IMG/VR virus record: IMGVR_UViG_3300019776_000078
Location: 3,384 to 67,383 of that record
DNA from: a virus
Direction: 5' to 3' (one strand)
DNA length: 64,000 nt
The notes below the pieces were generated by a model. The model saw nothing but the letters and a program-made list of their open reading frames with translations. It was not told the origin of the DNA and ran no database searches. The number at the start of each line of letters is the position of its first letter. Positions within the stretch are counted from its first letter, which is position 1. This document shows positions 5,103-56,006 of this stretch, piece by piece. A program made the translations under genes and the position numbers.

Positions 5103-5696
5103 ATGAGTAATGAAATTGCAAAATTTGGCGACACCGTAGGTGCTACTGCTGAACTAGGCGGCGGCGCTATTGAGACCGTTGGCTTAGAAGGTGTATATAC
5201 TTTCCGTTGCTTTGATGAAAACGGCGTTGAGAAATGGGTAGACACTATTCAGAACTTGACTACTAACGTTGGTCGTCAAAGTTTATTGAACGCATACTTT
5301 GCTAATACTGGCGGCGGTGCTGTTGTAATGGGTCTAGGTGGTGCTAACGCTAGCAACACATTTACTCCAGCTTACACAGATACACAGTCTAGCCACGTTG
5401 GCTGGTATGAAGTTGGTGGATCAAATGCTCCTACCTATTCTGGTACACGTAAGACTCCATCGTTTAGCTCTGCTACTTCTGCTAACCCATCCGTGTTATC
5501 TACTTCTGCTGCTGTAGTATTTAGCATGACAAGTTCAGGAACTGTTTATGGTGCGTTTATCAATATTGGCGGTTCTTCTACTATTGATTCTACTACTGGT
5601 ACTTTATTTAGTATCGGCGCATTCACGGCGGGATCAAAGACGGTAACTTCCGGCGACACGATAAATGTGACTTACACACTCAGCGCCGCTGGTTAA
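5103..5696 (+). CDS. virion structural/tail protein
   Basis: NLTTNVG, KTVTSGDTINVTY; S/T/G-rich. Confidence 0.55.
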   Translation: MSNEIAKFGDTVGATAELGGGAIETVGLEGVYTFRCFDENGVEKWVDTIQNLTTNVGRQSLLNAYFANTGGGAVVMGLGGANASNTFTPAYTDTQSSHVGWYEVGGSNAPTYSGTRKTPSFSSATSANPSVLSTSAAVVFSMTSSGTVYGAFINIGGSSTIDSTTGTLFSIGAFTAGSKTVTSGDTINVTYTLSAAG

Positions 5697-25770: not shown

Positions 25771-28700
25771 ATGCCAACTTATGACGTAACAGCGCCTGAC
25801 GGTAAGGTATATGAAATTACTGCCCCAGAGGGAGCAAGTCAGGAAGATGTATTAGCCTATGCCCAAAGCATGTATGGGCAGCCACAAGCGCCTAAAACAA
25901 AAGAAGGTGTAGGCACATCTGTTCGCCGTGGTGTAGAGCAATTAGGATCTGCATTTCAAACTGCCTATGAGTCTGTCACAAAAGGGGGCGAGGAGGCCGC
26001 TATACGGGCGCAGGAGCGTCAAGCAGACATTCAGCGTAGGTTGGGTGAGGGAGCTAGCTTAGAACGTCTTAAAAAGGTTTATGAAGAGCGTGGGATACTT
26101 CCTGCTGCTGGGGAATTGGTCTCACAGATCCCACAAGCGATTGCAGAACAAGCCCCTAATATTGCTGCTACATTAGGTGGCGCTGCCGCTGGTGCTGCTG
26201 CAGGTTCAGTAGTTCCTGGAGTGGGTACATTAATTGGCGGTATTGCTGGCGCCGCTCTTCCATCGTTTGTTCAACAGTACGGTGGAAATATTCAACGCCA
26301 AGCCGAAGCACAGGTTGCTCAGGGTAAACCCTTAGAAATTAGTCGTGCCGCTGCTGCTGGCACTGCAGTTCCTCAAGCAACATTGGATGTAATTGGTACA
26401 TTAGTTCCGCTGGGCGGCAACATGATTACTAAAATCTTGGGTCCAACTATGGGGAAAGTTTTAGCTTCCGGCGGATCGAAGATTGCTGATGAAGCGTTGC
26501 TTACTACAATCACCAAAGGTACAGCTAAAGGTATTGCTGCTGAAGTACCCACCGAAGTTAGTCAACAGATTCTAGAGCGCGCCCAAGCTGGTTTACCATT
26601 AACGACTCCAGATGCATTAAAAGAGTATGGAGAAACTGCGTTTGCTGTATCCCTACTAGGACCAATTGGTATCATTGGCCGTGTATCTGATAAAGCGCAA
26701 GCTGGCCGTGATCTTGCTTTAGCTAGACAAAAGGCTGCAGAAGAAAATACACCACAGCCTGTCACAATTCAGACCGTTGATTCTCCAGAGCCACAAGTGA
26801 TGTATGTTGCTCCAACTGGAGAAGTAGCAAAGTCTATGGAAGAACTAGACGCTGCACTCAAATACAAACAATACTATGCTGACTTAAATAAACCAGCTAC
26901 AGTAACTCCAAAAACGCCTGAAGTTTTATATGGCACCGCACAAGGCGATGTCGGCACTTCCATGGAAGATGTTGGTCAAGCTAAGATGTTTAGAGAACAA
27001 GCCTTAGCACGTCAGGCCGAACTACAAAAAGTCATTACACCAGAAAAGATCAAAGGTCTTGGTATTGGCAGTACTGCGTCTATATTCAAAGACAATAGCA
27101 TTATGAATCAAAGCCTCAGCAATCCCGATGTTGCTGACGCTACTCGTGCTAAGTTGCTAGATATCCAAAGCAAAAATACTAATGCTCAAACAAAAGCCAA
27201 GATTAGTGATTTCTTAAACCGTCCAGAGTTTATTACTCCCAAGTATGTAGACGAATTACTCAATCCTCCACTAGAAATGTCTCGTAAAGAGGCTGCAGCG
27301 CTGAATAAACAGCAGTTTGCGTTTATTGATAAAGACGGTCAGATCAAAGTGAAGTATGGCGATATCATTACTAAAGATGGTAAACAGTATGCCAAATACG
27401 AAGGCGGTGGTGAAAGACAGATTACTGATGATGTCATGGTAAACCCTAGTCCTGCATTAATGGAATCATGGTTGCTGTCTAAAGAAGAAGACAAAGTTAG
27501 CAAGATTCCAGATGACTTCAAAGAATATCTAGCAAAACGTAAGATCAGCACCAGCGAACTGTCTGATCTAAATATGAACGACATTCCTAAGACCAAAAAA
27601 GGCAGTAGCTTATATAAAACTTATTTCAGTGGTCAGGGAGTGAGCATAGATGAGTTGGTTAACGATGCCATCTCTAACGGTTTATTAAACGAAGAAGACG
27701 TATTACGTCACGGTAAAGATGTTACTGATGGCATGAGAGAACTGATTCGTGAAGCATTAGTGAATGATGCTCGTGTTCCATATACCCCACAAAACAATGA
27801 AGCTTTAAATCGTGAGTTTGATATTGCTCAACGCCGCAATCAATTAGAGTCAGCGCTTGAAGAGACAACCACAATGGTTGAAAGAGAAAGACCAACAGAA
27901 CCAATTGATGTTGGCATTCAAGAGCTTACCCCAGAAGAAAGAGCGCCAATTGAAGCTGAGGCATCTATCAGAGCCGCAGAAAGATTTGAGGGCGCACCAG
28001 CAGTCGAACCAGAAATTACTAGAGCTGAAGTGCCATACGAGTTCTCAGAGCAAGCTAAACGTGATATGGCTAAGATCATTCCACGTCTTACTCGTACTCT
28101 AGATAAGATGGGTTTGCATAACATTGGCTTAAACTTAGCTAAGAATCTTAAAGCTAATATTGACGGCAAAATTACTAAGGTAAACGGCACATATTTAAAC
28201 CGCATCATTACTTTATGCTTAGATAATCGTGGCATAGAAGCAACACTTCATCACGAAGCTATCCACGCACTTAAAGAAATGGGGCTGTTCTCTCAAAAAG
28301 AATGGGCCACCCTATCTAAGATTGCTAAAGATAAATGGATTGATCAATACAACATCAATAACCGTTATCCTAATGCCAGCGAAGAAGTCAAAATTGAAGA
28401 AGCTATTGCTTCTGCATTCCCTGACTATATGAAGCAAGTTGGTCAGCCACGTGGATTATTGCAACGCATTAAAGATTTTGTACAAAAAGTTGGCAACGTA
28501 TTCCGTGGTTTAGGATTCAATACTCCTGAGTCTGTGTTTGCTAAAGCTGAGGCTGGCAAGTTAACTGGAGAAGGTAAAGCTACCCAAGCAACACAAAGGG
28601 CGGCGGTCCCAACTAATACAGAAAACTTTAGGAATTGGTTTGGTAATTCTAAAGTAGTTGATGAGAATGGTCAGCCAAAAGTTATGTATCACGGCACAAG

Positions 28701-31700
28701 TAATTTTGTGGGTCAAGAATTTAAACCAAGTGCCAAAGTAAATAGAGGCGGCAACATAGATGGTTATTATTTTACGTCTGAACCATCTGATGCATCTAGG
28801 TATTCTTTAGGAAAAGAAGAAAAATTCAAAGAAGGTGCAGAAGTTATTCCGGTTTATTTAAGCCTTCAAAACCCATTTGTTAAAGGAAGTAAAGTAACCC
28901 CAAAAATGCTTCAAGTTTTTAAAGAAGAGGTTATTAAAAATAATCCTCAGTTAGGCGATAGAGCAGAAGAATATGCTAATGATAAAGCTGAAATAATGAA
29001 AGAATATGGAGAATCTGGTAGAAGATCTGCTCCAGAAATTTTTCCAAATATTAGCTTTCCAACGGATGCCAAACAGCGTGTATTAAAAGCTGGTGGATAT
29101 GACGGATTCCAAGACGGTGGCAGTCATTGGGTTGCATTTGATTCGAATCAAATTAAGTCTGCTATTGGAAATAAAGGAACGTTTAGTAAAGAAAGTCCAG
29201 ACATTCGTTTTGAAGTTCCATCTCGTGAGAAGTTTAAAGCGCCGATGCAAGGAGTAGACCCTGCTTATGCAGAGAAGTTACGCAATGCATTTACCCAACA
29301 GCCAGCAACTGTTAAAGAGAAGATGGAAGGATTGAAGAAGAACTTCTTTGATCGTATGGTTGTTGGCTTGTTTGATGAGTTCCGTGCTATTAAAAAGTAT
29401 GATCCCGTTGCTTACATGATGGCTCGCTTATCAAAGTCTATTGACGGTGGATTACAGGGTCTTTTGGAGTACGGTCAAGTATTTTTGCGTGACGGTGCGT
29501 TGGATATCAAACCAAACACAAAGGGATTATTAAAGATCCTAGAGCCAGTAGGCTCTGAAGTAGATCAATATCAGGCATGGAAAGCTTTGAGCCGTGATGC
29601 TAATTTACCTAAGGATAAACGCTCATTACCAGCCGACTTAGTTGCTGGTCGTGATCAGTTAACACAAGGCACGTTAAACGGCAAATCCCGTAAGGCTGTC
29701 TATGAGCAAGCATTGCGTGAAGAGAATGAACTTAATAAGTCTGTATTGAATGTAGCTAAAGAGTTAGGTTTAATTGACCAACAAGGATACGATAAGTTTG
29801 CTAGCGATATCTACTACATTCCATTTTATAAACAGATGGAAGATGGTGATGTACAGTCTGTCAGTAATGCGTCTAAGTTAACTGGTCAGCAGTTTAGTAA
29901 AGCGCTTAAGGGTGGTGAGAAACAGCTCAACGACTTGATGGAAAACGTGCTATTGAACTGGTCTCATATCCTATCTGCGGCGATGAAGAACCAGGCGGCG
30001 GTTAAGACGATTGATGCAGCAGCCAAGATGGGTGCGGCTACAGAAGTTAAGCCAATGGACGGCAAATATCCAAAAGGTTCCGTCAAAGTTATGCGTGATG
30101 GTAAGGCCGTTCATTATGAGTTAACCGATCCAGACTTAGTGGACGCTATTTCCACGATCTCTTACCTTGGTCCAAAGTCTCAGTTCCTAGACATAGCCAA
30201 AGGATTTACTAACGCACTGCGCTACGGTATCACGATGAGTCCTGCTTATAAGGTACGCAACTTAATCCGTGACTCTATCCAATCTGCCGCTATTTCCGAG
30301 CTTGGCAACAATATGTTCAAGAACGTTTATGACGGCCTATCCATGAGCAAAGAAGGTCATCCAACCTTTATGGCTGCATTGGCTGGTGGTGGTATCTTTG
30401 AAATGGGTACAGCCCATGAAGGGAACCAAGCTAAGTTGATTAAACGCTTAGTAGATAAGGGTGTTAGTGCTAACCATATCCTAGATACTACGGATAAGAT
30501 TAAAGGCAAATTAGGTGACCTATTAAACTGGTATAACGAGCAAGGAAACAAGTTTGAGAACGCTAATAGGCTAGCCCTATACCAGAAGCTCATTGACAGC
30601 GGTAAGACCCATTTAGAGGCTTCCTATGCGGCTCGTGACCTGATGGACTTCTCCATGCAGGGACAGTTCCGTTCGGTCAAAATAATCGGTTCTGTAGTGC
30701 CATTCTTTAATGCCCGATTACAAGGTCTATACAAGTTAGGTCGTGATGGTATTAGCCCGACTTATCGTGTCATTTGCAATGCTACTACGGGTAAACCCTT
30801 AGAAATTGGTGATAAGCAAAAAGCTGCCCGTTTTATGACTATCTCAAGCGCTGTAATGTTAGCGTCTCTAAGTCTGTACGCTATGTACAAAGATGACGAA
30901 GACTTCAAACGCCGTGAAGATTGGGATCGGGATAACTTCTGGTGGTTTAAGATTGGTGATACTGCCTACCGTATTCCTAAGCCATTTGAGATTGGTGCAT
31001 TAGGAACAATTGCAGAGCGTACATACGAGCAGATGTCTGACGATACCATAGAGGGTAAAGTATTTGCTAATCGTCTAAACCACATCCTGATGGATACGTT
31101 CTCATTGAATCCTACTCCGCAGATGGTTAAGCCGTTAATTGATCTATACGCTAATAAAGATAGCTTTACTGGCGCTCCAATTGAATCTGCTGGTATGCAG
31201 AACTTATCTAGACAAGAACGTGTTAATAACAATACTAGCGGTCTAGCAATTGCATTAGGCGGTATCTCTGAAGGTGCAGCTAAGATCCTGACATTTAATC
31301 CAGATGCACAGGGTTTATCTCCTGTACAAATGGACTATGCAATTAAGGCGTATTTTGGATGGCTAGGTGCTACCGCTGCATCCACCGCTGATTTGGCAGT
31401 AGAGCCATTCTCTGAAGGTACTAAAGTACACAAGCCAATTATTGATACGGTGGCGATGGGCTTTATTAAAACGGAACCAGAATTGCAGTCTAAATATATG
31501 ACGGCTTTCTATCAGAATAATGCCAACCTACAGTCTGCATTAGCTGATATGCGTCATTATGCCGAGCTTGGTGACTCTGCAAAAGTACAAGAAATCCTAG
31601 AAGAGAAAGGCCAAGATATTGCACTGGCTAAGGTATACGATAAAGCAAGTAAACAGCTCGCTGAATTGCGTAAACAATCTAGATTAATTGAGCAAAACCA

Positions 31701-31806
31701 ATCTATTCCTGCAGAAGAGCGTCGTGCAGAAATGATTCGGTTAAAAATATTAATGTCGGATATTGCAGCTCAAATGGAAACTATGCGGAAGACTTTAAAA
31801 AAATAA
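25771..31806 (+). CDS. large polyvalent internal virion protein (HExxH metallopeptidase, ADP-ribosyltransferase-like and LPD38-like domains)
   Basis: 2011 aa; LHHEAIHAL; FRNWFGNSKVVDENGQPKVMYHGT...YFT...VYL...GYDG...QIKSA; C-terminal YRIPKPFEIG and NKDSFTGAPIE. Confidence 0.75.
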   Translation: MPTYDVTAPDGKVYEITAPEGASQEDVLAYAQSMYGQPQAPKTKEGVGTSVRRGVEQLGSAFQTAYESVTKGGEEAAIRAQERQADIQRRLGEGASLERLKKVYEERGILPAAGELVSQIPQAIAEQAPNIAATLGGAAAGAAAGSVVPGVGTLIGGIAGAALPSFVQQYGGNIQRQAEAQVAQGKPLEISRAAAAGTAVPQATLDVIGTLVPLGGNMITKILGPTMGKVLASGGSKIADEALLTTITKGTAKGIAAEVPTEVSQQILERAQAGLPLTTPDALKEYGETAFAVSLLGPIGIIGRVSDKAQAGRDLALARQKAAEENTPQPVTIQTVDSPEPQVMYVAPTGEVAKSMEELDAALKYKQYYADLNKPATVTPKTPEVLYGTAQGDVGTSMEDVGQAKMFREQALARQAELQKVITPEKIKGLGIGSTASIFKDNSIMNQSLSNPDVADATRAKLLDIQSKNTNAQTKAKISDFLNRPEFITPKYVDELLNPPLEMSRKEAAALNKQQFAFIDKDGQIKVKYGDIITKDGKQYAKYEGGGERQITDDVMVNPSPALMESWLLSKEEDKVSKIPDDFKEYLAKRKISTSELSDLNMNDIPKTKKGSSLYKTYFSGQGVSIDELVNDAISNGLLNEEDVLRHGKDVTDGMRELIREALVNDARVPYTPQNNEALNREFDIAQRRNQLESALEETTTMVERERPTEPIDVGIQELTPEERAPIEAEASIRAAERFEGAPAVEPEITRAEVPYEFSEQAKRDMAKIIPRLTRTLDKMGLHNIGLNLAKNLKANIDGKITKVNGTYLNRIITLCLDNRGIEATLHHEAIHALKEMGLFSQKEWATLSKIAKDKWIDQYNINNRYPNASEEVKIEEAIASAFPDYMKQVGQPRGLLQRIKDFVQKVGNVFRGLGFNTPESVFAKAEAGKLTGEGKATQATQRAAVPTNTENFRNWFGNSKVVDENGQPKVMYHGTSNFVGQEFKPSAKVNRGGNIDGYYFTSEPSDASRYSLGKEEKFKEGAEVIPVYLSLQNPFVKGSKVTPKMLQVFKEEVIKNNPQLGDRAEEYANDKAEIMKEYGESGRRSAPEIFPNISFPTDAKQRVLKAGGYDGFQDGGSHWVAFDSNQIKSAIGNKGTFSKESPDIRFEVPSREKFKAPMQGVDPAYAEKLRNAFTQQPATVKEKMEGLKKNFFDRMVVGLFDEFRAIKKYDPVAYMMARLSKSIDGGLQGLLEYGQVFLRDGALDIKPNTKGLLKILEPVGSEVDQYQAWKALSRDANLPKDKRSLPADLVAGRDQLTQGTLNGKSRKAVYEQALREENELNKSVLNVAKELGLIDQQGYDKFASDIYYIPFYKQMEDGDVQSVSNASKLTGQQFSKALKGGEKQLNDLMENVLLNWSHILSAAMKNQAAVKTIDAAAKMGAATEVKPMDGKYPKGSVKVMRDGKAVHYELTDPDLVDAISTISYLGPKSQFLDIAKGFTNALRYGITMSPAYKVRNLIRDSIQSAAISELGNNMFKNVYDGLSMSKEGHPTFMAALAGGGIFEMGTAHEGNQAKLIKRLVDKGVSANHILDTTDKIKGKLGDLLNWYNEQGNKFENANRLALYQKLIDSGKTHLEASYAARDLMDFSMQGQFRSVKIIGSVVPFFNARLQGLYKLGRDGISPTYRVICNATTGKPLEIGDKQKAARFMTISSAVMLASLSLYAMYKDDEDFKRREDWDRDNFWWFKIGDTAYRIPKPFEIGALGTIAERTYEQMSDDTIEGKVFANRLNHILMDTFSLNPTPQMVKPLIDLYANKDSFTGAPIESAGMQNLSRQERVNNNTSGLAIALGGISEGAAKILTFNPDAQGLSPVQMDYAIKAYFGWLGATAASTADLAVEPFSEGTKVHKPIIDTVAMGFIKTEPELQSKYMTAFYQNNANLQSALADMRHYAELGDSAKVQEILEEKGQDIALAKVYDKASKQLAELRKQSRLIEQNQSIPAEERRAEMIRLKILMSDIAAQMETMRKTLKK

Positions 31807-53180: not shown

Positions 53181-53608
53181 TATTTCAATCCCTTATTAAA
53201 GTTTTGCAAATACTCCATGATCGGTAAAACTTGGTATTTCTTAAGGTTTACGGCTTGCGCTACTTGCTCGCTAAATGTTTCTAATACGGCTACCTGATCG
53301 GCTCGCCTAACGATTACCCATGAAGTCATTTAAGCCCCCTATAAATTGCTATAAATTCGGCTACTTGTTGGGCGGTCAATATGCCCTTAGCGTAAGCCCT
53401 TGTGAGCGTGTAATGCGTCCATTGGTGGTTAGTCATGCTGGAATCCTCCTATCGTTAATAGCGCGCTTAATCCGTTGCTTAATCTCGCGCATGGTATAAT
53501 CGTAAAAAGTAACCCCGAAGCGGTCAGAATCCCCGCTACAAGTAGCACTTATTGACCCGTTAGGGTTGCGGTTAAACATGATGTAGTAATCCTTGAACCA
53601 AAAGTTTT

Positions 53609-53806
53609 TCATGCTCTCTGCTCCTGATTGCCTAATAAGATATTTACAAGGTCGGTAGTGGATTTATAAGCAAGTATCTGCAAGTGCGGATCAGTAAGCC
53701 CGCTCATAAAATCGTCTGCGTCCTGTTCAGTATTGAACGCCCTTATAAGGTCTTTATGCGTCCAAGAGTTGTAGCCCCGCGCTATGTATAGTTTTCTCAT
53801 GTTCAT
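53609..53806 (-). CDS. hypothetical early protein
   Basis: Probable start MNMRK after AAGGGG. Confidence 0.45.
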   Translation of the reverse strand: MNMRKLYIARGYNSWTHKDLIRAFNTEQDADDFMSGLTDPHLQILAYKSTTDLVNILLGNQEQRA

Positions 53807-53810
53807 CCCC

Positions 53811-54146
53811 TTAAAACTGTTGGAATAGAAATACACCCTCGGACGGTTCCCCGATAAGCAAGGTGTGATCGTTTAGATAATTCATTACTGCCTCTTTTAC
53901 TTCTTCTTCTGTTGGCTCTTCACTGTCGCACTCAATGGGATAGCAGTTGAAAATATCTCCGACTTCCATTTCTGAATAATCGCAACATAACGCGATAACA
54001 TCCAGTTCGACCTGTTCGCCCGTATCTTCTTCGTACTGCTCGAGCCAGTCAAAAAGCATAGTTAAGGCCTCATAAGAAAACTGGTTCCCTCTGTCCATGC
54101 TTTGAAATGCGTTTCTAAAGTCATAGTAATTAACGGTCTGTATCAT
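53811..54146 (-). CDS. highly acidic conserved early protein
   Basis: FSYEAL..LFDWLE...ELDVIALCCDYSE; AAAGAGGAG RBS. Confidence 0.65.
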   Translation of the reverse strand: MIQTVNYYDFRNAFQSMDRGNQFSYEALTMLFDWLEQYEEDTGEQVELDVIALCCDYSEMEVGDIFNCYPIECDSEEPTEEEVKEAVMNYLNDHTLLIGEPSEGVFLFQQF

Positions 54147-54185
54147 GGTATTTCTCCTCTTTGGTTGTGAAATTGGCTCGGCTGC

Positions 54186-54449
54186 CTAAGCGTTTTCTGC
54201 TGCGGGGTGTTGCAATTTATAAGTAAGATCTGCCAATCCATTCATGCAATCCTTACAGTCGCATGGCATTACTTCGATTTTGGAAGCCCGCTTTAATTCC
54301 TGCATGGTGTCAAATCCTTTGGTATGGCATAGATCATCTGTAAACCTAAAGCCATAAGGCAAATTGAGAATGTAACTTCCCATGCCTTCTCCATCTTCTG
54401 GACATCCATCTACATCTACATCCCGCTTAATATCCAGCTTATATCGCAT
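54186..54449 (-). CDS. hypothetical early protein with CxCxxC
   Basis: AAGGAGG RBS; PCDCKDC. Confidence 0.6.
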   Translation of the reverse strand: MRYKLDIKRDVDVDGCPEDGEGMGSYILNLPYGFRFTDDLCHTKGFDTMQELKRASKIEVMPCDCKDCMNGLADLTYKLQHPAAENA

Positions 54450-54466
54450 AAAATCCTCCTTTAATT

Positions 54467-54517
54467 GATCTCATCAGTTAGCGCATAACGCTAAGACGGG
54501 ACAAGCCCGTTTCGATC
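54467..54517 (-). ncRNA. type II hammerhead ribozyme
   Basis: Minus strand GAUC-GAAA-CGGG-cuugu-CCCG-UC-UUAGCG-uuaug-CGCUAA-CUGAUGA-GAUC: complete catalytic core, three stems and a GUC cleavage triplet. Confidence 0.9.
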
Positions 54518-54519
54518 TT

Positions 54520-54780
54520 TTAGCCCTCAAATACGGGGCTATTGTCATAATTCATATTGGATAAGACTTCATCAAGGCCGCTATAACCTAGTGCCTTAGC
54601 CTCTAGGTCTGCCGCTTGTGCAAGGGTTAAACCCTCGGCATTGTGGAAAGTGTCAGGGACAGAACCAAAAAATTCCATATAGAATGATTCAAGCTGTTCA
54701 GCTGGTAATTCCATTGTTGCCAATACTAAGCAAGGGTTAGCAACATGGGAAAGCAAGTTTTTAATGATCTCTTTTTGCAT
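54520..54780 (-). CDS. hypothetical protein, first early gene
   Basis: AAGGA RBS; downstream of a predicted promoter. Confidence 0.55.
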   Translation of the reverse strand: MQKEIIKNLLSHVANPCLVLATMELPAEQLESFYMEFFGSVPDTFHNAEGLTLAQAADLEAKALGYSGLDEVLSNMNYDNSPVFEG

Positions 54781-54827
54781 GATAGATTCCTTTATTTATA
54801 AGGGTTTGCTGGTTGTTTACTTATTAC

Positions 54828-54876
54828 TAATGTATTGCATGATTGATACATTAACACAATATATTTAAGAGTGCAA
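54828..54876 (-). promoter_or_regulatory. early promoter with overlapping inverted repeat
   Basis: Minus strand TTGCAC-17 bp-TAATGT with TG extension; TAATGTAT-N10-ATACATTA at 54828-54853. Confidence 0.55.
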
Positions 54877-55089
54877 TTAACCTACTAATCTGTTGGGTTA
54901 TTGTTTCGGCTGCGCTCCCAGTTTCTGCTGCACAAAGTCGCTAGGCTGCCGACATCCGACCATAAAAGCCCGCTATGTCTTCGCTACTGGAGCAGCTTAT
55001 TAACTCTTTCCGTAGGGAATAAGAGAGAGCATAGAACCCTTACTTGTGATCTAAGTATTAGTCAGATATAAAGCATAGGATTAAAAGCA

Positions 55090-55120
55090 CTGTGGATTTA
55101 TACAGTAGTTGTGTTATAGT
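55090..55120 (+). promoter_or_regulatory. LexA (SOS) box and extended -10 upstream of terS
   Basis: CTGT-GGATTTAT-ACAG at 55090-55105; TGtTATAGT at 55112-55120. Confidence 0.65.
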
Positions 55121-55157
55121 TCAGTCATTCCTAACCTATACCCAATAGTTATTACTT

Positions 55158-56006
55158 ATGCGCCTATCTAAGATTACTAGAAAGCAAGTCGATCAGGTCT
55201 TAAAAGAGAACCCCATACATGAGGTGCTCAATGTCGCTAAAACCGCGCTTACTCCTAAGCAGCTTAAGTACTGTGAGAATGTAGCTAAGGGAGATAGTAA
55301 AGCAGGAGCATATAGGAAGGCATATAACAGTAAGGCAAAGCCAGATACGCAAGCCAATGAGGGTTATAAGCTATCCAAACGCCCCGACATCGACACGATG
55401 ACAGAGGCTATTAGGAAGGGATTAGAGTGGGAGAAATCGTATTCTCTTGCTCAAACAAGAGCACTCGTGGTCGAAAGACTGACAAAAGAGGCTTTGGATG
55501 AGGATTCTTCCCCTTCTGCTCGCATCAATGCACTCAAGGCACTCGGCACAGTTGCGGGAGTAGATGCATTCGTGCATAGGACTGAGACTACAGTAATAAA
55601 AGACAGTAGCAAGATCAGGGATGAACTACTTACTCAGCTTAAGCAAGCGATGGAGTCGAGCACCATTGATCTAGATGCTGATGAACAGGCTCTATTAGCG
55701 GAGATCAACCCTACCGCCAATGAGATTGAGGATAGCGGAGACCCACCCGAGGGCGACCACCCCTTTTCTGAAAAAGATGGGACTCAAATACTACATAGTA
55801 CTCCAGACAAAAGATCACAAAATAATACTAAAAATTATAATGACTCCGAAAATCCCCAACAAAATCATGGAGTTCCAGAACAAGTGTCAACGTTGACAGT
55901 TGATTTGCATTCCAAAGAGGGGGGTAGGGGTGTAAAAAATGATGCCAAATGGGAAGAAAGTGGTACAGGAAAGACCCACGTCAGTGGTTTTAAAACAAAG
56001 GGGTAG
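55158..56006 (+). CDS. terS: terminase small subunit with long C-terminal extension
   Basis: LTPKQ..YC...G.S...AYRKAY; ARINALKALG; upstream of terL. Confidence 0.7.
   Translation: MRLSKITRKQVDQVLKENPIHEVLNVAKTALTPKQLKYCENVAKGDSKAGAYRKAYNSKAKPDTQANEGYKLSKRPDIDTMTEAIRKGLEWEKSYSLAQTRALVVERLTKEALDEDSSPSARINALKALGTVAGVDAFVHRTETTVIKDSSKIRDELLTQLKQAMESSTIDLDADEQALLAEINPTANEIEDSGDPPEGDHPFSEKDGTQILHSTPDKRSQNNTKNYNDSENPQQNHGVPEQVSTLTVDLHSKEGGRGVKNDAKWEESGTGKTHVSGFKTKG
55862..55906. repeat. palindromic site TGTCAACGTTGACA with conserved flanks (copy 2)
   Basis: Near-inverted copy of 46096-46140. Confidence 0.8.

What the first reader, a model, noticed from the sequence alone, without database searches (positions are those of the whole stretch)
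54467..54517. Complete hammerhead ribozyme between the first two early genes
Seen: the minus (sense) strand has CUGAUGA and GAAA cores, stem I UUAGCG/CGCUAA, stem III ACGGG/CCCGU and open stem II GAUC/GAUC. Cleavage is predicted after GUC (between 54495 and 54494). The ribozyme fills the gap between a stop codon and the AAGGAGG RBS of the next gene. Established: type II hammerheads occur in phage intergenic regions, but their function is largely unknown. Inference: self-processing gives the downstream early mRNA a 5'-OH hairpin end, changing its stability or translation.
Basis: partly seen in the sequence, partly recalled or inferred. Interest (0 to 1): 0.8.

Follow-up and report, generated by a model that had tools for sequence, protein, structure and literature searches.

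The report
Phage intergenic type II hammerhead ribozyme
A genuine self-cleaving hammerhead RNA motif sits between two small phage genes, most likely to cut the shared transcript into separate messages; this kind of element and this proposed role are already in the literature.

Summary
On the minus strand, 54467-54517 carries every hammerhead core position (CUGAUGA, GAA, the A15.1-U16.1 pair, C17, the G10.1-C11.1 pair). It has closed stems I and III and an open 4-bp stem II, which makes it type II. It is not chance: it is the only such motif in the 67-kb phage genome, and 0 of 300 shuffled genomes gave one as good. Relatives of this phage carry it at the same place with compensatory changes. 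Over 81 distinct family members, 14 of 16 pairs covary; only the two pairs that the hammerhead consensus fixes never vary. Rfam's Hammerhead_II model does not match it. It belongs to a large subclass (at least 119 viral contigs, 15 stretches in bacterial MAGs) that lacks the loop I/tail pseudoknot usual in type II. This subclass has a 6-bp stem I, a 5-nt loop starting with U, and a 4-bp stem II flanked by A/A. The family follows a placement rule: the upstream stop codon lies within -1 to +3 nt of the ribozyme in 137 of 175 cases, and the next start lies about 24 nt downstream. Some loci hold up to 7 copies, one per small gene. The likely role is cutting polycistronic mRNA into hairpin-ended units, as Perreault et al. 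proposed in 2011. Cleavage itself is untested. Verdict: real, and a new member (arguably a sub-variant) of a known kind.

The parts
54467..54517 (-). Whole type II hammerhead ribozyme (51 nt)
   Evidence: Sequence read. Only motif hit in the genome. 79.8 bits with model R1, filters off.
54514..54517 (-). Stem II, 5' strand (GAUC; positions 11.4-11.1)
   Evidence: Invariant in the 13 sequences of A2. Three of the four stem II pairs covary in the wider family.
54510..54513 (-). Core G12 A13 A14 plus A15.1
   Evidence: Invariant in A2.
54496..54510 (-). Stem III hairpin (A15.1-U16.1 plus 4 G-C pairs, 5-nt loop). It becomes the 3' end of the upstream product.
   Evidence: Compensatory GGG/CCC to CCC/GGG swaps in relatives.
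54495..54495 (-). C17. The predicted scissile bond is between 54495 and 54494.
   Evidence: H17 is C in 160 of 165 dissected family members. Cleavage itself was not tested.
54478..54494 (-). Stem I hairpin (6 Watson-Crick pairs, then loop UUAUG, or a U-G pair plus UAU). It becomes the 5'-OH end of the downstream product.
   Evidence: 4 of 7 pairs show both-side changes in A2, and 7 of 7 in A4.
54471..54477 (-). Core C3 U4 G5 A6 U7 G8 A9
   Evidence: Invariant in A2.
54467..54470 (-). Stem II, 3' strand (GAUC; positions 10.1-10.4)
54518..54518 (-). Conserved unpaired A 5' of stem II
   Evidence: A in 60 of 65 family members not selected for it.
54466..54466 (-). Conserved unpaired A 3' of stem II
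   Evidence: A in 45 of 65 family members not selected for it.
54520..54780 (-). Upstream ORF (86 aa, no family match). Stop UAA at 54522-54520, 2 nt before the ribozyme.
   Evidence: No PHROG or Pfam hit. No homologue in the 227 loci held at the time.
54455..54460 (-). Shine-Dalgarno AGGAGG, 6 nt after the ribozyme and 5 nt before the AUG
54186..54449 (-). Downstream ORF (87 aa, Cys-rich, no family match)
   Evidence: Homologues directly follow a hammerhead in L075, L191 and L193. In L073 the homologue directly follows a promoter-like site with no ribozyme.

Best explanation
The element is a functional type II hammerhead self-cleaving ribozyme, transcribed as part of the leftward polycistronic mRNA of a 67-kb tailed phage. 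Once transcribed it folds into the three-way junction. The 2'-OH of C17 (54495) attacks the next phosphate. This yields (a) the upstream message, which keeps its stop codon and ends about 25 nt later in the G+C-rich stem III hairpin with a 2',3'-cyclic phosphate, and (b) the downstream message, which starts with a 5'-OH on the stem I hairpin, followed 24 nt later by the Shine-Dalgarno site (54460-54455) of the next gene. The ribozyme therefore works as a cistron separator or insulator. It uncouples the fate of the first small gene's mRNA from the rest of the operon and gives both products structured ends. Shown here: the motif, its non-chance occurrence, its conservation and covariation, its family-wide placement between stop codon and ribosome-binding site, and the lack of the usual pseudoknot. 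Inferred: that it cleaves in vivo, that the hairpin ends protect the products, and the net effect on expression. My odds are about 0.9 that it is a real, active ribozyme and about 0.55 that cistron separation with altered stability or translation is its main role.
For: All core positions are present at the right places, and the MFE and RNAalifold structures equal the hammerhead fold. There is 1 site in the genome, against 0 of 300 shuffles as good. Among the 80 kept loci with a large terminase related to this phage's (74-91% identity), model R1 finds 14 copies in 13 loci. All lie on the strand opposite the terminase, 1.6-2.7 kb upstream of it as in the window; 10 of the 40 loci with at least 2800 nt upstream carry it. 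On the MAFFT alignment of 13 sequences, 100% of cells pair, 7 of 16 pairs change on both sides and 0 of 500 shuffles reach the score. On 81 distinct sequences, 97.3% of cells pair and 14 of 16 pairs change on both sides. The two pairs that never vary are C11.1-G10.1 and A15.1-U16.1, as the hammerhead consensus requires. Placement over 179 distinct instances: an upstream ORF stop was found for 175, and it lies -1 to +3 nt from stem II in 137 of them. A downstream SD plus start was found for 151, and it lies 10-29 nt after the ribozyme in 129 of them, median 24. The longest open frame is on the ribozyme's strand in 121 of 173 upstream flanks (opposite strand in 41) and in 131 of 167 downstream flanks (opposite in 20). 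No locus has copies on both strands. Arrays of 2 to 7 copies occur at 227-950 nt spacing. Published precedent: type II hammerheads flank single genes in prophages, with triple arrangements tested for cleavage during in vitro transcription and the A. tumefaciens ones self-cleaving in vivo in E. coli (PMC3088659, passages). Three type II hammerheads in D. vulgaris cleave in vivo (PMC8782182, passages). An engineered ribozyme insulator placed before a gene raises expression in E. coli (PMC6206723, abstract).
Against: There is no experimental or transcript evidence for this locus or this subclass. No Rfam hammerhead model matches it. The fold is no more stable than shuffled sequence (z 0.09). The pseudoknot shown to be needed for fast cleavage at 0.5 mM Mg2+ in the tested type II ribozyme (PMC3088659) is absent here. 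Its absence holds across the subclass: a helix of at least 4 bp between loop I and the tail occurs in 5.8% of 154 members, against 9.5% when tails are swapped among members. Speed at physiological Mg2+ is therefore uncertain. 30 of the 40 relatives with enough upstream sequence lack the element, so it is dispensable. A 5'-OH end can mark an mRNA for decay, as RNase J1 does for glmS (PMC3328962), so 'stabilisation' may be wrong in sign. The sequences used for the covariation counts were collected by structure-aware searches, which inflates the percentage of paired cells, though not the diversity of pair types.
Confidence: 0.7

Rival explanations
1. The ribozyme cleaves, but the consequence is the opposite of protection. 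The 5'-OH end targets the downstream message for 5'-3' decay, or the cut simply lowers expression of downstream genes relative to gene 1. On this reading it is a built-in attenuator of polarity rather than a stabiliser.
For: The glmS precedent: the 5'-OH product is a substrate of RNase J1 in B. subtilis (PMC3328962, passage). The element sits after the first gene of the cluster, where differential dosage would make sense.
Against: The 5' end of the downstream product lies at the first base of a 6-7 bp hairpin in 160 of 165 dissected members, which would be expected to hinder a 5' exonuclease (inference). Arrays before every gene of a cluster fit poorly with progressive destruction. The host and its RNases are unknown.
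Confidence: 0.15
2. The element is kept mainly at the DNA level, as a conserved junction at which small early-gene cassettes are exchanged by homologous recombination between phages. Its RNA activity would be secondary or ancestral.
For: In a blastn of window 53500-55200 against 227 loci, up to about 36 alignments pile up on 54451-54525, while both flanking genes have 0-3. The genes on either side differ between relatives. Presence is patchy, at 10 of 40 relatives. The two copies in L020 share an identical 3' part and ribosome-binding region.
Against: Conservation follows RNA rules, not DNA identity. Stems change by compensatory pairs while the 11 core bases stay fixed. Strand and position relative to stop codon and SD are constrained. 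A recombination site needs none of this. The two roles are not exclusive.
Confidence: 0.1
3. Cleavage followed by ligation makes spliced or circular RNAs. The 2',3'-cyclic phosphate and 5'-OH ends would be joined by the ribozyme itself or by a host ligase.
For: This is raised as a possibility for clustered hammerheads in PMC3088659 (passage). Arrays that flank single genes exist in relatives.
Against: The window has one copy only (filters off), so no unit is flanked on both sides. The same paper reports that no such products were detected.
Confidence: 0.03
4. It is a chance match to the hammerhead consensus, or plain hairpins acting as a terminator or attenuator.
For: The fold energy is not exceptional. 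No Rfam model matches. A terminator-like hairpin plus T-run is called on the opposite strand at 54494-54512.
Against: 0 of 300 shuffles gave a motif as good. There are syntenic copies with covariation. At least 119 viral contigs match a 25-base specified pattern. There is no U-run after either hairpin on the sense strand. The antisense T-run comes from the A-rich spacer after the stop codon and is not conserved in relatives.
Confidence: 0.02

Closest known systems
Type II hammerhead ribozymes of bacteria and prophages (Perreault et al. 2011, PMC3088659; Rfam RF02276 Hammerhead_II)
   Same: Same circular permutation: stems I and III closed, stem II open. Same core and C17 site. Same habitat, between small non-conserved genes of phages and prophages, often in multiple copies that flank single genes. 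Same proposed role, processing of long phage transcripts.
   Different: There is no loop I/3'-tail pseudoknot. Stem II is 4 bp, against 2 modelled pairs in RF02276. Loop I is a 5-nt loop starting with U rather than the longer UGG-containing loop. RF02276 does not reach E<=10 on it.
Type III and type I hammerheads with loop-loop tertiary contacts (sTRSV, Schistosoma)
   Same: The geometry fits a loop-loop contact: about 6 bp of stem I up to a small loop with a conserved U, and 4 bp of stem II up to conserved unpaired A residues. A reverse Hoogsteen pair between the two loops is described as conserved in types I and III (PMC6155905, passage).
   Different: Here stem II has no closing loop; the A residues are the single-stranded flanks. 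Whether they contact loop I is my inference and was not tested.
RiboJ and similar engineered ribozyme insulators
   Same: A self-cleaving hammerhead-derived element placed just upstream of a ribosome-binding site removes upstream RNA context and leaves a hairpin at the new 5' end. It raised protein 2- to 10-fold in E. coli (PMC6206723, abstract).
   Different: RiboJ is synthetic and derives from a satellite-RNA ribozyme (recalled, not from a call). It is placed after promoters rather than between natural cistrons.
glmS ribozyme
   Same: A bacterial mRNA-embedded self-cleaving ribozyme whose 5'-OH product determines the fate of the downstream message (PMC3328962).
   Different: It has a different fold, is metabolite-dependent, lies in a 5' UTR, and its outcome is decay.

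Membership tests
Hammerhead ribozyme (any type) | Core C3 U4 G5 A6 N7 G8 A9 | tested here: met
   CUGAUGA at 54477-54471. Invariant in the 13 aligned relatives.
Hammerhead ribozyme (any type) | Core G12 A13 A14 and the A15.1-U16.1 pair | tested here: met
   GAAA at 54513-54510, with A54510 paired to U54496. The pair never varies in 81 distinct sequences.
Hammerhead ribozyme (any type) | Cleavage-site triplet N-U-H, with H17 not G | tested here: met
   GUC, with C17 at 54495. C in 160, A in 4 and U in 1 of 165 members.
Hammerhead ribozyme (any type) | Three helices around the core, supported by covariation, with no mispair next to the core | tested here: met
   14 of 16 pairs show both-side changes and 97.3% of cells pair. 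The G10.1-C11.1, U1.1-A2.1 and A15.1-U16.1 pairs are all formed in the window. The sequences came from structure-aware searches, so the paired percentage is inflated.
Hammerhead ribozyme (any type) | Site-specific self-cleavage giving 2',3'-cyclic phosphate and 5'-OH ends | not testable with these tools
   No RNA run holds the locus. A cleavage assay is needed.
Type II hammerhead | Stems I and III closed by loops; stem II open (5' and 3' ends in stem II) | tested here: met
   Order on the sense strand: stem II 5' strand, GAAA, hairpin III, C17, hairpin I, CUGAUGA, stem II 3' strand.
Type II hammerhead, common (pseudoknot) form | Pseudoknot of 4 or more bp between loop I and the nucleotides just 3' of stem II (true of 'a majority' per PMC3088659) | tested here: not met
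   In 154 short-loop members, a helix of at least 4 bp occurs in 5.8%, against 9.5% with tails swapped among members. The window's value was not printed separately by the script. By eye, the loop I region (UUAUG) finds no more than 3 contiguous pairs in the tail.
Rfam RF02276 Hammerhead_II | Score at or above the gathering cut-off (37 bits) | tested here: not met
   No match at gathering, at E<=10 on 241 nt, or in the whole genome. As positive controls, L085 scored 45.6 bits and L082 38.2 bits.

The most novel reading that the evidence does not exclude
This is one copy of a distinct, abundant and so far unmodelled subclass of type II hammerheads. The subclass replaces the Watson-Crick pseudoknot with a contact between a 5-nt loop I (first base U) and the conserved A residues that flank a 4-bp open stem II. 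It is built as a standard 'cistron separator' cassette that starts at, or even overlaps, the stop codon (UAG-AUC in 57 of 175 cases). A ribosome terminating on the upstream gene would therefore unfold the ribozyme, coupling cleavage to translation of the upstream gene. The same 50-nt module would double as the junction at which phages swap small early genes.
Probability: 0.3. Interest if true: 0.6.

Novelty: new member of a known kind. Interest (0 to 1): 0.4.

Why it matters
The biological role of bacterial and phage hammerheads is still described as an open question in the reviews I read (PMC6155905; PMC6765202). This locus adds no new principle. The family it led to does give a clean, testable set: more than 170 distinct copies with one fixed architecture (stop codon, ribozyme, about 10 nt, ribosome-binding site), arrays of up to 7 copies, and natural presence/absence pairs among close relatives. 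One such pair is the same downstream gene with the ribozyme (L075) and directly behind a promoter-like site without it (L073). The family also shows a blind spot in annotation: Rfam's type II model misses this pseudoknot-free subclass. As small natural insulators between cistrons, these elements could serve as parts for synthetic operons.

Tried and rejected
Rfam scans: the whole window at gathering gave 0 hits. The 241 nt around the site at E<=10 gave only a 9.7-bit snoRNA match, taken as chance. RF02276 against the whole genome gave 0 matches. An attempt to list sub-threshold scores with a higher E-value limit was outside the tool's range and was not pursued.

A nucleotide search of 801 nt against 50,697 phage records in distant mode found no match.

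Relatives of the two flanking proteins in viral contigs: the 87-aa protein gave one weak locus (L001) that on reading is not a true homologue and has no ribozyme. The 86-aa protein gave none.

Sequencing runs: no RNA holder is listed, so read laying was not used and expression could not be examined.

Predicted accessibility of the SD-to-AUG region rises from 0.60 (uncleaved, 120 nt of upstream RNA) to 0.67 (cleaved), up in 82 and down in 25 of 126 instances; in the window it rises from 0.40 to 0.46. I ran no control for truncation as such, so I draw nothing from it.

Promoter scans found no convincing sigma-70 site upstream of the first gene. Reading by eye suggests only a weak candidate.

15 relatives without the ribozyme were scanned with Rfam to see whether another ribozyme class takes its place: 0 hits.

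A pseudoknot was looked for and rejected. For the 11 long-loop members the swap control is uninformative, because they share the same pseudoknot sequence (91% against 83%).

Supplementary files of PMC3088659 (hammerhead alignments, Figures S4 and S5) could not be seen. They may already contain members of this pseudoknot-free subclass.

Full report
WHAT IS THERE

The window is bases 3384-67383 of a 67,383-bp virus record with direct terminal repeats. It is a tailed phage. Small and large terminase, portal, virion and tail proteins lie on the plus strand. Primase, helicase and an exonuclease are also present. A run of small ORFs on the minus strand starts at 54780 and diverges from the small terminase gene.

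Read on the minus strand, 54517-54467 holds, in order:
- GAUC
- GAAA
- a hairpin (A54510 to U54496)
- C54495
- a second hairpin (54494-54478)
- CUGAUGA (54477-54471)
- GAUC

This is the order of a type II hammerhead: stem II open, stems I and III closed. The upstream ORF ends in UAA two bases before stem II. AGGAGG follows the ribozyme after six bases, and the AUG of the next ORF lies five bases further on.

IS IT MORE THAN CHANCE?

Energy alone says nothing. The minimum-energy fold is the hammerhead junction, but it is no more stable than shuffled sequence (z 0.09).

The motif is what counts. A scan requiring the core, the A15.1-U16.1 pair, H17 and three stems found this one site on both strands of the genome. 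In 300 dinucleotide-preserving shuffles of the genome, 7 had any motif passing the loose thresholds. None had stems as long as here.

COMPARATIVE EVIDENCE

Of 529 stretches in viral contigs that matched terminase peptide patterns, 525 encode a relative, and the best 80 were kept.
- The motif scan found 13 type II hammerheads in 12 of these loci.
- A covariance model built from 13 sequences (R1) found 14 copies in 13 loci.
- All copies lie on the strand opposite the terminase and 1.6-2.7 kb upstream of it. The window's copy is 2.1 kb upstream.
- Of the 40 loci with at least 2800 nt upstream, 10 carry it and 30 do not. It is syntenic where present, but dispensable.

On the structure-blind MAFFT alignment, all 208 cells pair and 7 of 16 pairs change on both sides, for example GGG/CCC to CCC/GGG in stem III. 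No shuffle out of 500 reaches the covariation score, and sliding the partners destroys the signal. RNAalifold predicts the same structure on its own.

These sequences were gathered by searches that demand pairing. The paired percentage is therefore partly built in, but the variety of pair types is not.

A LARGE FAMILY

A pattern fixing this ribozyme's stem III and cores hit 28 viral contigs. By my own rough arithmetic, not a tool result, a 25-base specified pattern with about 126 gap combinations should give well under one hit in a collection of this size.

R1 then found 99 and 101 matches in these two sets of loci. With that makes 215 matches, or 179 distinct instances. Over 81 distinct sequences of the first set:
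- 97.3% of cells pair.
- 14 of 16 pairs show compensatory change.
- The only two pairs that never vary are C11.1-G10.1 and A15.1-U16.1, which the hammerhead consensus fixes.

Stem II is GAUC/GAUC in all 14 syntenic copies. Among the 65 instances not selected for it, it also appears as GGUC/GACC (13), GGAC/GUCC (5), GACC/GGUC (5) and other pairs, so it is a real helix.

The same pattern occurs in 15 stretches of bacterial MAGs from Planctomycetota, Bacteroidota, Alpha- and Gammaproteobacteria, Bdellovibrionales, Melainabacteria and Pyrinomonadaceae. Several are on contigs of hundreds of kilobases, which is consistent with prophages.

WHY RFAM MISSES IT

RF02276 gives no match at gathering, none at E<=10 on 241 nt, and none in the whole genome. 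Among 12 loci that each hold at least one hammerhead by my pattern, it reached its cut-off in 2 (L085 at 45.6 bits, L082 at 38.2 bits). Both have the long loop I that pairs with the 3' tail.

Perreault et al. state that a majority of type II hammerheads have such a pseudoknot of at least 4 bp, and that it is needed for fast cleavage at 0.5 mM Mg2+ in the tested ribozyme (PMC3088659, passages).

In this subclass the pseudoknot is absent. Among 154 members with a short loop I, a helix of at least 4 bp between loop and tail occurs in 5.8%, against 9.5% when tails are swapped among members. The subclass instead has:
- a stem I of 6 pairs followed by 5 nt (52 of 62 unselected instances), beginning with U (54 of 62);
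- a stem II of 4 bp (154 of 165);
- an unpaired A on the 5' side (60 of 65) and on the 3' side (45 of 65).

I infer, without test, a loop-to-flank contact of the kind known between loops I and II of type I and III hammerheads (PMC6155905, passage). The same 2011 paper notes that many hammerheads use neither known contact. Members of this subclass may already be in its supplementary alignments, which I could not see.

PLACEMENT RULE

For 175 of the 179 instances an upstream ORF of at least 40 codons on the ribozyme's strand was found. Its stop codon lies -1 to +3 nt from the first base of stem II in 137 of them. In 57 the stop is UAG and shares its G with stem II.

For 151 instances a start codon preceded by a Shine-Dalgarno-like motif was found. 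It lies 10-29 nt after the ribozyme in 129 of them, median 24.

The flanks are open on the ribozyme's strand far more often than on the opposite strand: 121 against 41 upstream, and 131 against 20 downstream. No locus has copies on both strands. 25 locus-strands have 2 to 7 copies, mostly 227-950 nt apart, which is one per small gene.

The window's copy obeys the rule, with the stop 2 nt before it and the start 17 nt after it.

MOSAIC CONTEXT

At the nucleotide level the ribozyme is an island. Up to about 36 alignments from other loci cover 54451-54525, while the genes on either side have 0-3. The upstream protein has no relative in any fetched locus.

The downstream protein's relatives follow a hammerhead in L075, L191 and L193. 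In L073 the relative sits directly behind a TTGACA/TAGAAT-like promoter with no ribozyme.

HOW IT MOST LIKELY WORKS

Cleavage after C17 would leave the upstream message intact, with its stop codon and a short tail ending in the stem III hairpin and a cyclic phosphate. The downstream message would start with a 5'-OH at the base of the stem I hairpin, shortly before the ribosome-binding site.

This is the processing of long phage transcripts into single-gene mRNAs proposed in 2011 and still listed as unproven in 2019 (PMC6765202). It resembles engineered ribozyme insulators, which raise expression of the insulated gene in E. coli (PMC6206723, abstract).

The sign of the effect is open, because a 5'-OH end is a decay signal for RNase J1 in B. 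subtilis (PMC3328962).

The ribozyme starts at the stop codon, so a terminating ribosome would cover stem II and part of stem III. Folding and cleavage must therefore compete with, or be timed by, translation of the upstream gene. That is inference only.

VERDICT

The element is a new member of a known class, in a pseudoknot-free subclass that current models miss. Its proposed function is the published, untested one. Interest is moderate.

Noticed in passing
L176:3332-6296 (+); also L179/L205, L102, L217, L136, L128, L147: Arrays of the same ribozyme on one strand: 7 copies in L176 and 5-6 in L179/L205, spaced a few hundred nt apart, roughly one per small ORF.
   Followed up: partly
L020:4899-4950 and 5323-5374 (-): Two copies lie 424 nt apart and flank one small gene. 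Their stems I and III differ by compensatory changes, but their 3' tail and ribosome-binding region are identical over about 30 nt. This suggests duplication or recombination at the module.
   Followed up: no
L084, L092, L099, L106, L091 (3' tails shown): In these members the tail after stem II contains CAUCAG or AUCAG, complementary to the CUGAUG of the core. This allows an alternative hairpin that would sequester the catalytic core, a possible off-state.
   Followed up: no
window 53811-54146 (-), and L082, L083, L087, L089, L094, L097, L105: Relatives of the third small gene (phrog_9974, unknown function) sit immediately upstream of pseudoknot-type hammerheads in other phages. The same gene family thus associates with both ribozyme subclasses.
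   Followed up: no
window 54494-54512 (+): A terminator-like hairpin plus T-run is called on the antisense strand. It is the complement of stem III plus the A-rich spacer after the stop codon. It is probably incidental, since the spacer is not A-rich in relatives.
   Followed up: partly
window 25771-31806 (+): A 2011-aa ORF matches PHROG families of unknown function (phrog_18222, E 1.4e-183) and weakly matches a tail-associated lysin.
   Followed up: no
window 1-64000: No tRNA gene and no Rfam family at gathering score anywhere in the window.
   Followed up: yes
L073:840-900 (-): A near-consensus TTGACA / TAGAAT-type promoter lies directly upstream of the homologue of the window's second gene. 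No comparable site was found upstream of the window's first gene.
   Followed up: partly
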